Source: an uncultured Spirochaetota bacterium (GTDB taxonomy: Bacteria > Spirochaetota > Brevinematia > Brevinematales > JAOACQ01). From it: a stretch of 64,000 nt of DNA. Position numbers: made by a program. Numbering within the stretch: position 1 is the first letter of the stretch; each line of letters opens with the position of its first letter. Shown here one piece after another: positions 21,001 through 24,000 of the stretch. The DNA is taken from contig CAWIGG010000005.1 of the NCBI GenBank assembly GCA_963835575.1, positions 1 to 64,000 of the forward strand, written 5' to 3'.

Positions 21001-24000
21001 TATAAAAACTCACTTTTCCTCCTCAATAAATTATTTTCGATTATACCCAAAGAAACAATCAAATAATGTGAAATTATCGATTAAATAAAAACGATCGGCC
21101 AGTGAATCCCGTTGAACAGGACTGTCTGAATATTTCCATTTGAATAGTTTAAAGAGAAGTATATTCAATCTTATTAATCCGCCTTCTTTTTTGATTAATA
21201 TTGTACCTCAAAATAAAGCATTTTTGCAATAAATGAGGGGTTTGTTTTTTATTAAAAAACCTAAAATAAACACGGGGTAATCCGCTAAGCTTGCCCTGAG
21301 CTTGTCGAAGGGACACGCGAATGGACGCGAATCGGGATTAAGGGGAATGAATTTTTTATTGATGGAATGAAAAATAAAAACAGAATAACATTATTAGCGT
21401 GAATTCGCGTGGCTTAGCGGAAGCCCAATCTGCTTTCAATAAATCCAGGATTATTCGATATTCAGCTTCTTTTTAATCGCCGCCATGGTTTTTACCATCT
21501 CGGGGAGTCTTGACATCGCGGCGTGGATGCGCTTCTGCTCCATAAAATTCCGGGCGGGTGAACCGAACAGGATGCTGTTCGATTCGATCTTTTTGGATTC
21601 AACGCCGGACTGCGCCAGCACAATGACATTATCGCCCAATTTCGCATGGTCCGCCACGCCTACCTGCCCCGTCAGGAAGCAGGCCTTTCCGATCGTAGCG
21701 CTTCCGGCGATCCCGACCTGCGCCATTATAACGGAATATGCACCGATCTTTACGTTATGAGCGATCTGCACCAGGTTATCTATCTTGACTCCCTCTCCGA
21801 TGACAGTCTCGTCCATTGTTGCCCTGTCGATTGTCACGCAGGCGCCGATCTCGACATCATTTTCTATAACGATCCTGCCGATCTGGGGGATTTTGATGTT
21901 CTTTCCGTCCTTCTGGATATAGCCGAAACCGTCGCCGCCGATAACGCTGTTATGATGGATAATGACATTGTCCCCGATTACTGTTTCATCATCGATCTTC
22001 ACTCCGGCTTTGATCAGGCAGTTTTTCCCGATCCTGACATTCTTTCCGATATAGACCTGTGAATAAATGACTGTGCCTTCCCCTATTTCGGCGTTGTCCA
22101 TGATCGCCGCGAACGGCAGTATCGTGACATCATGAGCTATTTTCGCGCCTTTCTCGATATAGACCGCTGGATAGATTTCTTTTTTATAAGGTTTATAAGG
22201 ATTGAATATCTCCAGTACTTTCGTAAAAGTCAGCTTCGGTTCTTTTACATTAATATAAGGCTTTGTTTCACATTTCATATCAACGGGGATGATCAGCGCG
22301 GACACGGTGGTTTGAGAAAGAAGCTCAAGGCTTTTTTTATTCTCGGCATAGGCGATACCGCCCTCTTTCTGATGCTCCAGATCGGAGATTCCTGTAATTT
22401 CGACATCCGTTCCGGTCAGTTCGCCGGAGACAATGCGCGCTATTTCAGACAATTTCATAACTCTCTCCTGTTCTCACCTTCTCTATATAAGTATAACATT
22501 GATTTTTTATTTTTAAAGGAAAGTTACGGCAAAGATGCCTGGGGTCAAAATCTTTTCTTTTTTTAATGAAATTTAAAGGGATTTTTATTCCGACAGGCTG
22601 TCGGGGGTTTACGATATTTCTTTCTTTTCGAAAAGAAAGAAATATCGCGCTAAAGAAAGAAAACAGGTCGAGGCCATTTTCATACTAAGGAATCGGTTAG
22701 TATGGAAGTGTGTCATCCGGTTTTTTAATAGCGATTCAGTATTTTAATAGCCTCCTTATTACGCTGTCCATAGCTTTATGCGGCGGTTTTGACATCCTGT
22801 CAAAAACTTGTGCCTCTCTTCTATTATTATAATAGCGGATGACACGGCTTGATATTGAGTTATTTGATATACCGATTATGGCTAATGGAAAATGGCCTCG
22901 GGAACGGATGATAATTCGAAATAACTCTTGATGAATCAATTTAGTGCAAATATCACTTGACAATTGGAAATAATTATATTATAATTATGATGATATAATT
23001 TAGTGCTCTTATTTATTTTAAGCGTTGGAGTGTAAATGAAGGATATAAAAACAGCTAAATTATCTCAGATCGCATATATCCGGCAGGGCTACCAATTCCG
23101 TAAAAGCATTGAAAATGTGCCATCCGGAGATATTAAAGTTATTCAAATGGCAGATATTATAGACAACTATTCGGTTAATTGGTCTCATCTCTTTCATGTC
23201 CATGAAGAAAACATAAACCCATTACATTTTTTAAAAGACAATGACATATTATTTTGCTCCAGGGGAATTAATAACTATAATATTGTACTTGAAAAAGTCA
23301 GTAACCCTATGATAGCAGTATCGCAATTTCTTGTGATTAAAACTGATGATAATGCTGTTAATCCGGGTTATCTTTCATGGTATTTGAACCAGCCGGAAGC
23401 GATGGCGTATTTCAAAAAAAATACCCTGACGAGCACGGTTCCGCTGATCAATAAAAGTACGCTGAATGAAATGATGATCCCTCTTCCATCCCTGCAGGAA
23501 CAGAAAATTATTGCGGAAATTAATAAACTGTCAATTAAGGAAAAAGATTTGATCGACCTGATAAATGACAAAAGGAAAATAATGATAAATCAAATCCTGA
23601 GGCAGAGAATCGAATAATAAGGAGCGGTTATTATGGCAAACTCACATCCTATTACCCAAAACGAAATCAACAATATCCTCTGGAAAGCCTGCGATACATT
23701 CCGGGGCGTCGTCGATCCCTCTGAATATAAAAATTATATCCTGGTTTTCCTGTTCATTAAATACATTTCCGATTTATGGAAAGATAAAAAGGAAAACTAT
23801 ACAAACCAATACAAAGGCGATGAGACCCGGATTCAAAGAGCGCTGTTAAGGGAACGGTTCGTTCTGCCGGAAAACTGCGATTATGATTATATTTACAAAA
23901 GCCGGAATGACAGCAAGATCGGGGAAATAATCAACATAGCCCTGGAAAGAATTGAGGAAAAGAACAAGGAAAAGCTGGAAGGCGTTTTCAGGAATATCGA

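What a model noticed while it worked through the whole genome (the two positions that open the first line are those of the whole stretch)
22666..22918. An oriented 255-nt inverted-repeat element marks the entry to defence islands at 34 loci
A non-coding element bounded by the inverted repeat GAGGCCATTTTC...GAAAATGGCCTC, with inner hairpins, occurs at 34 loci (median 77% alike; no Rfam family, no conserved ORF). It is polarised: RM, CRISPR-Cas, toxin-antitoxin and other defence genes follow its 3' end and core genes precede it; the type I RM locus (C5:22.9-33.3 kb) and the type I-E CRISPR-Cas locus (C2:809-820 kb) are each bracketed by two inward-facing copies.
Evidence so far: Defence/TA Pfam within 4 non-IS genes: 23 of 32 3' ends vs 2 of 31 5' ends vs 7.8% background; seven other repeat families show no polarity (43); 41 nhmmer hits = 34 loci (191); Rfam none (33, 189); not found in 4 congeners (36), where rsmA adjoins kdpD without the RM cargo (45).
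(Added by a program. Inside this text positions count along the whole contig: contig position 1 is position 1 of the stretch shown here. "Call 12" and the like, gene names such as g00115 and contig names such as C1 are that model's own, and its searches are not shown. The text may have been shortened before it was handed on; [...] marks where a part breaks off. The agent that wrote the report below was given it as the finding of a first reader that could run no searches.)

Follow-up and report, generated by a model that had tools for sequence, protein, structure and literature searches.

The report
Folded repeat edging defence-gene inserts
The repeat is a spirochaete branch of a known but unexplained folded element (the TwoAYGGAY class), and in three related genomes foreign DNA, often anti-phage genes, lies at one particular end of it, sometimes between two back-to-back copies.

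Summary
The repeat is real: 34 loci. It is longer than reported (about 320 nt, window 22590-22907) and is best read on the other strand: two GGA-loop hairpins on a long stem, ending in a triple-helix or pseudoknot cap. That is the extended TwoAYGGAY architecture of a 2026 preprint. Rfam RF01731 hits relatives' copies below its cut-off and misses this genome's. The 12-nt inverted repeat is a covarying stem, not a transposon end.

The polarity holds. Defence or toxin-antitoxin genes lie on one side at 21 of 34 loci and on the other at 3 of 34. GC is lower on that side at 27 of 34 loci here and at 20 of 24 out-of-sample loci. Close pairs in three genomes face the cargo 14 times and face away 0 times.

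A composite-transposon vehicle is not supported: no target duplications, partners are not each other's closest copies, and a congener carries the CRISPR-Cas locus unbracketed. Distant metagenome copies show little defence polarity. My best guess, unproven, is single-stranded pasting by a RAYT-type transposase, with one loose end.

This scan noted TwoAYGGAY on other DNA before (210 notes, including the triple helix and cassette-slot pairs).

The parts
22590..22907 (-). Whole element (TwoAYGGAY-class structured repeat); the GGA-loop sense runs on the minus strand, its 5' end next to the RM cargo
   Evidence: Conservation across copies; covariance model R1 hit 22695-22846 on minus
22590..22604 (-). 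Outer (terminal 3') hairpin; marks the sharp end of the unit
   Evidence: the equivalent hairpin in G006/G009 is preceded by T at -1 in 12 of 12 and at -2 to -4 in 9-10 of 12
22610..22647 (-). Cap hairpin with a pyrimidine arm and a purine arm; in this subfamily the loop has collapsed
22652..22664 (-). Third strand: mirror image of the purine arm, so it can form a triple helix
   Evidence: Mirror of 8-13 nt in 44 of 79 element heads, 15 different arm patterns; coordinates
22669..22681 (.).
   Evidence: sequence differs but stays paired in G006/G009
22710..22719 (.). Inner stem P3, left arm
   Evidence: Covariation
22763..22774 (-). Tip hairpin with a GGA loop on the minus strand
22787..22805 (-). 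Second tip hairpin with a GGA loop on the minus strand
   Evidence: 7 of 7 pairs change on both sides across three genomes
22836..22845 (.). Inner stem P3, right arm
22888..22907 (.). Basal stem P1, right arm, and the conserved 8-nt tail; beyond it lies the loose, cargo-side end
21451..22458 (-). lpxD, core gene on the cap side
   Evidence: Pfam LpxD; in 3 of 4 congeners it lies next to or near the orthologue of the gene at contig position 66.5 kb, so about 44 kb starting at this element is absent there
22957..22985 (+). Consensus sigma-70 promoter (17-nt spacer) pointing into the RM operon; it belongs to the cargo and points away from the element
   Evidence: Read directly; -35 position; function inferred
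23036..32860 (+). Cargo: type I RM (hsdS, hsdM, second hsdS, hsdR), two DUF3800 genes, a PBECR2 nuclease (PDC-M04A/B pair) and a YgjP-like peptidase
   Evidence: Pfam; PADLOC
33265..33619 (+). Partner copy facing the first; other cap type with the pseudoknot loop kept, and a 45-nt hairpin insert in the tip
   Evidence: 81% identical to the first copy, 14th closest of 23
49423..51461 (-). Third copy in the window, its cap hairpin split by an IS1182-type element (about 49456-51131)

Best explanation
This is a Spirochaetota branch of the extended TwoAYGGAY class: a non-coding, multi-copy element kept by its fold (shown). It spreads in bursts as a non-autonomous element (inferred, about 85%). Its two ends differ. 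The cap end is sharp and sits on a short T run with no target duplication. The other end is loose: copies share flank of varying length there, and other repeats, IS elements and foreign genes pile up there. The mechanism I think most likely is pasting as folded single-stranded DNA by a Y1 HUH transposase of the RAYT type acting in trans (inferred, about 35-40% for this enzyme class). The loose end sometimes drags up to about 1 kb of neighbouring DNA, and afterwards serves as a landing place for incoming DNA. Brackets form when two independently derived copies end up back to back around such DNA; they are not the matched ends of one transposon. Defence genes dominate because they dominate the foreign DNA that these genomes keep.
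For: IDENTITY: GGA loops on the minus strand; RF01731 full-length hits of 37.2, 35.3 and 27.5 bits on G006 copies, 3 of 3 hits in that genome; long stem, pseudoknot, terminal hairpin and divergent doublets as in the preprint. FOLD: 13 of 15 pairs change on both sides across three genomes, 0 of 500 shuffles reach the score; pseudoknot pairing 3.64 nt within a copy versus 2.51 between copies, 0 of 2000. SPREAD: 33, 32 and 40 copies in three genomes, none in 38 other relatives or in 150 genomes of the phylum; empty sites in congeners. ASYMMETRY: sharp T-run junction; no direct repeats of note; shared flank of 40-136 nt on the cargo side; three G006 copies with 86-95% alike tails (median 69%) share cargo-side blocks 95-915 nt out, two of them including a Y1 gene. 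RAYT LINK: both Pfam Y1 hits of G006 and one of two in G000 lie on a cargo side within about 1.6 kb; 3 of 5 RAYT-like loci in G000 lie in cargo; 9 of 9 REP hairpins of one RAYT lie on a cargo side within 2.7 kb, three of them 82-118 nt from the element; one G006 pair brackets little more than a Y1 gene and its REPs. Core helices are almost purely Watson-Crick: 1481 pairs against 18 G-T and 21 A-C.
Against: No enzyme is shown. G009 has 40 copies and no Y1 hit (57% complete), while three relatives have Y1 genes and no element. RAYT genes may sit in cargo only because they travel with RM genes. The co-copied flank is one group of three loci. The cap has the geometry of an RNA pseudoknot with a major-groove triple helix (from knowledge of telomerase-type pseudoknots), which points to RNA rather than DNA. 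The consensus fold of 12 G000 copies showed more G-U-compatible changes on the plus strand. In metagenome copies found by one cap pattern, GC was lower on the cargo side at only 11 of 18 (p 0.12) and a defence gene lay there at 1 of 17.
Confidence: 0.5

Rival explanations
1. Passive marker or insulator. Foreign AT-rich DNA arrives first by other routes; the element inserts at, or is kept at, the border in one orientation, for instance because its cap stops transcripts leaking out of foreign DNA.
For: A congener holds a 71-81% identical type I-E CRISPR-Cas locus with no element within about 6 kb on one side and 3 kb on the other. Partners of a pair are unrelated. Paralogous type IIG RM genes face the element in both directions. 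A word-array repeat in the same genome is also polar, 10 of 13.
Against: It does not explain copies that share flank with their closest relatives. There is no U run after the cap hairpin on the GGA strand. Neighbouring genes show no orientation bias, 18 versus 16 on each side.
Confidence: 0.2
2. An RNA gene (a CsrA sponge with a stabilising 3' triple helix) that is copied through its RNA by a borrowed reverse transcriptase, starting at the cap and ending at variable points upstream.
For: Conserved GGA loops, proposed in print as CsrA sites; csrA is present in G000 and G006. RNA-type pseudoknot and triple helix. A-rich 3' end and variable 5' extent. A group II intron-type element sits in 3 of its 4 copies inside the element.
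Against: No promoter feeds the element: 17 of 77 flanks against 15 expected by shuffling. Congeners G002 and G004 have csrA and no element. No target duplications. No G-U preference in the core helices. Kilobases of cargo in either direction fit poorly.
Confidence: 0.15
3. One reading: two copies act as the ends of a composite, MITE-bounded transposon that carries whole defence islands.
For: 14 pairs within 12 kb face the cargo and none face away, in three genomes. They bracket type I RM, CRISPR-Cas, Dsr1, a Ppl-like gene and single HNH or Y1 genes.
Against: Partners rank 14th and 8th of 23 in G000, and 15th, 15th and 9th of 22 in G006. No duplication of 8 nt or more at the outer ends of 9 pairs. 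The terminal repeat sequence is not fixed. No bracketed unit was seen twice. Most copies are single. In G000 alone, 5 close pairs against 2.9 by chance is not telling.
Confidence: 0.1
4. The cap is a site-specific recombination site, attC-like: circles of element plus cargo integrate into an existing cap.
For: Orphan caps in the same orientation lie 0.8-1.0 kb beyond the cargo at three loci.
Against: Back-to-back pairs outnumber tandem pairs 14 to 7. No recombinase gene recurs among the neighbours.
Confidence: 0.05

Closest known systems
TwoAYGGAY motif, Rfam RF01731 (Weinberg et al. 2010, PMC2864571: supplement hits and one part of the alignment file seen), and its extended form (Li et al. 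2026, bioRxiv 10.64898/2026.09.22.753630: abstract, passages and section 8 read; supplements closed)
   Same: Two GGA-loop hairpins on a basal stem, long stem, 3' pseudoknot, terminal hairpin, all-or-none copy numbers, divergent doublets, linkage to REPs. The 2010 seed already lists divergent pairs 1.1, 2.0 and 2.5 kb apart in NC_008709.1.
   Different: Below the Rfam cut-off. In Spirochaetota, whereas the preprint finds the extension largely confined to Pseudomonadota. Longer (about 320-340 nt). Pairs are 1.4-10.4 kb apart rather than a median of 249 bp. The main subfamily here has lost the pseudoknot loop but kept the third strand. In the preprint's main text 'cargo' has 0 hits, and the passages shown for 'defen' and 'Spiroch' do not concern this element (12 of 17 places shown).
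REPIN/RAYT systems (Bertels et al. 2017, PMC5581495: passages read)
   Same: Non-autonomous folded repeats, doublets, a Y1 gene flanked by repeats; no target duplication (recalled).
   Different: The element is far larger and is not a doublet of short REPs. The RAYT genes here have REPs of their own, which sit beside or inside the element.
MITE-bounded composite units: TIME-COMPs (PMC13367494: search listing only) and integron mobilization units (recalled)
   Same: Two non-coding copies bracket kilobases of cargo.
   Different: No fixed terminal repeat, no target duplication, partners only 70-85% alike, no cognate DDE transposase found.
BoxC / PIT / TM intrastrand triplex repeats (Holder et al. 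2015, PMC4666352: passages read)
   Same: Hairpin plus mirror third strand; variable DNA around the motif.
   Different: Their consensus is C/G-rich and stands alone. Here the triplex is A-rich and caps a 250-nt rod, and the variability is one-sided.

Membership tests
TwoAYGGAY (RF01731) | Two sequential hairpins on a common stem, each with an AYGGAY-type loop | tested here: met
   Loops on the minus strand hold GGA in nearly all tip hairpins found; the first two letters vary
TwoAYGGAY (RF01731) | Score at or above the gathering cut-off of 43 bits | tested here: not met
   No hit in G000; best 37.2 bits in G006, 30.7 in G009. So it is filed as a structural relative, not as an Rfam member. One cap-bearing metagenome locus does reach 47.5 bits
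Extended TwoAYGGAY (2026 preprint) | Elongated basal stem and terminal 3' hairpin | tested here: met
Extended TwoAYGGAY (2026 preprint) | 3' pseudoknot | tested here: met
   Covaries in 25 unique caps with a loop; absent from the main G000 subfamily, including the copy in question
Extended TwoAYGGAY (2026 preprint) | Divergent doublets | tested here: met
   14 divergent, 0 convergent, 7 tandem within 12 kb; 14, 3, 9 within 20 kb
Extended TwoAYGGAY (2026 preprint) | Array of 5-6-nt repeats at the 5' end | tested here: inconclusive
   A 5-mer from the tail recurs 2-3 times at 6 of 33 ends; no long arrays
Extended TwoAYGGAY (2026 preprint) | Match to the authors' extended covariance model | not testable with these tools
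   The model is not available here
MITE / composite transposon end | Fixed terminal inverted repeat shared with a transposase-bearing element | tested here: not met
   The stem changes sequence among relatives; the ends of the three IS families examined differ from it
MITE / composite transposon end | Target site duplication | tested here: not met
   None of 8 nt or more at 9 pairs; two 8-mers far from the ends among 31 single loci. Short 2-5 nt duplications cannot be excluded
REPIN | Doublet of short REPs forming one hairpin | tested here: not met
   A many-helix unit of about 320 nt
REPIN | Copies flank a RAYT gene | tested here: inconclusive
   One G006 pair brackets a Y1 gene, but that gene has its own REPs
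IS91 / ISCR rolling-circle element | Y2 transposase in the genome | tested here: not met
   PF04986 not found in G000, G006 or G009
Integron attC | Same-orientation arrays, one site per cassette | tested here: not met
   Back-to-back pairs dominate
Integron attC | R and L boxes with extrahelical bases | not tested
   Not scanned
BoxC / TM triplex repeat | C/G-rich TM consensus | tested here: not met
CsrA-binding sRNA | Transcribed and bound by CsrA | not testable with these tools
   No sequencing run was listed; no conserved promoter

The most novel reading that the evidence does not exclude
TwoAYGGAY-class elements are the one-sided ends of an unrecognised cargo system: a HUH transposase starts at the triplex cap, runs through the element and carries the foreign DNA beyond it, so that these repeats seed and stock defence islands, much as attC sites stock integrons.
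Probability: 0.2. Interest if true: 0.85.

Novelty: new variant of a known kind. Interest (0 to 1): 0.55.

Why it matters
Why defence genes cluster at fixed places is an open question, and TwoAYGGAY is a widespread element with no known role. Here the two meet in a measurable way: one defined end of the element predicts foreign, often anti-phage DNA in three genomes. That gives a testable handle on how the element moves (sharp end, loose end, RAYT neighbours). It also gives a practical way to find new defence genes: read the unannotated genes at the loose end, such as those bracketed in L058, L059 and L060. The effect was weak in distant metagenome copies, so it may be limited to this lineage.

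Tried and rejected
Rfam scans by E-value gave nothing for this genome's copies. Exact-pattern scans found the core only in G006-type and two unrelated-looking records among genome contigs and nothing in viral contigs.

An early reading that the plus strand is the folded one was dropped after a strand-symmetric count gave 18 versus 21. That count uses trimmed helices and favours Watson-Crick pairs.

The first cap scan had too strict a loop rule and was redone.

IS1182 as mobiliser: rejected. It splits the cap at 4 of its 24 copies and hits other hairpins.

IS91-type transposase: not found. A shared enzyme among neighbours: all-against-all BLAST found only IS transposases, RM, toxin-antitoxin and common families.

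Conserved promoter: none. Terminator-like gene orientation: none.

Generality: weak in metagenome copies. 18 loci passed the filter, 17 were scanned, and 54 of 69 called proteins were given.

Print searches that found no description of defence cargo at such elements. The library lacks most subscription papers. The preprint's supplementary text and figures, and file S1 of the 2010 paper, could not be read and may discuss gene context.

Full report
WHAT IS THERE. 24 are intact, 7 are interrupted and 3 are partial. The intact copies are 81.5% alike at the median. Lining up the flanks shows that the unit begins about 80 nt left of the stated start. A genome-wide scan for hairpin-plus-mirror motifs found 20, all at this element.

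THE FOLD IS UNDER SELECTION. Two genomes of another genus in the same family carry 32 and 40 copies. Their sequences differ widely but keep the pairing. On 31 copies from the three genomes, 13 of 15 tested pairs change on both sides and none of 500 shuffles reaches the covariation score; the tool warns that kinship alone can beat such shuffles, but slid partners score far lower. The 12-nt inverted repeat is replaced by other paired sequences, so it is a stem and not a fixed transposon end. The mirror between purine arm and third strand holds in 44 of 79 element heads and in 15 arm patterns. The cap loop pairs with the stretch after the third strand better within a copy than between copies: 3.64 against 2.51 nt, 0 of 2000 shuffles. 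On the minus strand this has the layout of an H-type pseudoknot with a major-groove triple helix (from knowledge of such structures; not probed). The main subfamily here, including this copy, has lost the loop and kept the third strand.

WHAT IT IS. On the minus strand both tip loops hold GGA. I recalled the TwoAYGGAY motif from this and tested it. RF01731 gives no hit in this genome. It gives three full-length hits in G006, all on element copies (37.2, 35.3, 27.5 bits; cut-off 43), and two in G009. A metagenome locus with the same kind of cap reaches 47.5 bits. A 2026 preprint describes an extended TwoAYGGAY in Pseudomonadota with a long stem, 3' pseudoknot, terminal hairpin, wide copy-number swings, REP linkage and divergent doublets (68.4%, median 249 bp apart), and leaves mobility unresolved. 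The host is a spirochaete by record titles for the same family and by earlier notes. I file the element as a structural relative, not as an Rfam member.

THE POLARITY. I called genes with a simple self-trained caller and scanned the first four on each side, IS genes not skipped; 17 of 272 lay outside the fetched loci and were not scanned. The cap side was first scanned at a stricter threshold; rescanning 24 of its blank proteins at 1e-5 added none. After merging loci that share cargo, 14 of 29 remain, against 2 of 19 random blocks (p 0.011). The background used 96 of 140 listed genes and a strict threshold, so it may be low. A measure free of keywords agrees: GC within 3 kb is lower on the cargo side at 27 of 34 loci. 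It replicates in G006 (24 of 30) but not in the first G009 set (5 of 10), and in loci fetched later from both (20 of 24). By my count, 14 of 32 G006 ends have a defence hit on the cargo side and 2 of 31 on the cap side; not every cap-side gene was scanned. In the later loci it was 8 of 26 against 0 of 25. Of 14 other repeat families in this genome, two are also polar, one a word-array repeat and one that looks coding.

AGAINST GENERALITY. In metagenome contigs found with one cap pattern, GC was lower on the cargo side at 11 of 18 loci (p 0.12) and only 1 of 17 had a defence gene there.

BRACKETS. Across the three genomes, neighbours within 12 kb face the cargo 14 times, face away 0 times and run in tandem 7 times; within 20 kb the counts are 14, 3 and 9. 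This genome alone has 2, 0 and 3, with 2.9 close pairs expected by chance. The brackets hold type I RM, CRISPR-Cas, Dsr1, a Ppl-like gene, Fic, single HNH or Y1 genes, IS elements and unannotated AT-rich genes. But partners are not each other's closest copies and no target duplication was found. A congener holds a homologous CRISPR-Cas locus with no element near it. So the pairs are not matched ends of one transposon.

EMPTY SITES. In congeners, rsmA adjoins the next core gene in 3 of 4, and lon lies within about 0.5-0.8 kb of the radical-SAM gene in all four. lpxD lies by the orthologue of the gene at 66.5 kb in 3 of 4. The element therefore stands at the edge of inserts specific to this genome. 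For the window, the insert is about 44 kb, of which the RM bracket is the first 11 kb, so the genes outside the second copy are not core genes at this position. The congeners are too distant (about 70% amino-acid identity) to show junctions.

HOW IT MOST LIKELY WORKS. Shown: conserved fold; all-or-none presence; a sharp cap end on a T run; a loose other end with shared flank; no promoter; secondary insertions. The last are an IS1182-type element in the cap loop (4 of 24 copies), a second IS1182-type element in GGA loops (4 of 6 copies here, a fifth in a variant) and a reverse-transcriptase element at a tip (3 of 4; read as a group II intron from its protein motifs, from memory). Inferred: pasting as single-stranded DNA by a Y1 HUH enzyme in trans. 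The grounds are the lack of duplications, the near-pure Watson-Crick helices, and the closeness of RAYT-like genes and their REPs to the loose end. The link is circumstantial: RAYT genes may simply ride with RM genes, and presence of Y1 genes does not track the element well. I give this enzyme class 35-40% and the whole explanation 50%.

EARLIER NOTES AND VERDICT. I reached the TwoAYGGAY lead before reading the scan's notes on it (note). The scan holds 210 such notes in at least 158 genomes, among them the triple helix and a pair bracketing cassette genes. Three word look-ups for defence polarity returned nothing. What is added here is the measured one-sided link to defence and foreign DNA in three genomes, pairs up to 10 kb apart, and a branch in Spirochaetota. 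New variant of a known kind; interest 0.55.

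Noticed in passing
G000 C2:1013.4-1013.9 kb, C2:1415.1-1415.5 kb, C4:515.9-516.3 kb, C4:908.3-908.7 kb, C5:371.0-371.4 kb and about six more: A second rod-shaped repeat family of about 410 nt with its own long terminal stem and a different tip. 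It clusters with the element, sometimes nested in it or facing it. GC polarity 7 of 11, not significant.
   Followed up: partly
G000 C5:408849-412472 (L036:7850-11473): A type IIG RM gene carries a RAYT-like Y1 domain in frame, flanked by REP hairpins.
   Followed up: partly
G000 C2:2025.8 kb, C4:206.4 kb, C5:86.5 kb, C5:235.9 kb, C5:371.7 kb, C6:388.1 kb: An IS1182-type element with six copies: five sit in GGA-loop hairpins of the element or a variant, the sixth in another small hairpin.
   Followed up: partly
G000 C2:94.3 kb, C4:452.8 kb, C5:88.3 kb, C6:409.3 kb: A 2.0-kb reverse-transcriptase element: three of four copies sit at the same tip hairpin of the element, and the fourth site shares the preceding bases.
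   Followed up: partly
L069:4750 and L073:4640 (G006): The same IS110-family element is inserted exactly at the loose end of two different copies.
   Followed up: no
L080:4624-6351 (G009): A pair brackets a single HNH nuclease gene with a homing-endonuclease-associated repeat; the frame looks broken near its start.
   Followed up: no
L058:4758-7002, L059:5062-7832, L060:4986-7846 (G006): AT-rich genes with no Pfam or PADLOC hit at the thresholds used, bracketed by pairs; candidate new defence genes.
   Followed up: no
window 25140-28741: Two DUF3800 genes and a PBECR2 nuclease lie inside the type I RM operon; the second DUF3800 and the nuclease match PADLOC PDC-M04A/B.
   Followed up: no
G000 C4:909955-913257 (L028): Two 96% identical rlmL-like genes in tandem with a HigBA-type pair between them, between an element and an orphan cap.
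   Followed up: no
G000 C2:653386, C2:1014369, C2:1412418, C4:908741, C4:914286, C6:307973: Orphan caps without a rod, each within 5 kb of a full element; one has a short IS-end-like palindrome in its loop.
   Followed up: partly
window 11032-11144, 21262-21428, 55876-55983, 14002-14035, 37889-38302: Word-array palindromes of the kind earlier notes link to GxxExxY nucleases; one such family is also GC-polar, 10 of 13.
   Followed up: partly
L035:15110-16645 (G000 C5:379.6-381.1 kb): A gene with a thiol-activated cytolysin family match on the cap side of one locus.
   Followed up: no
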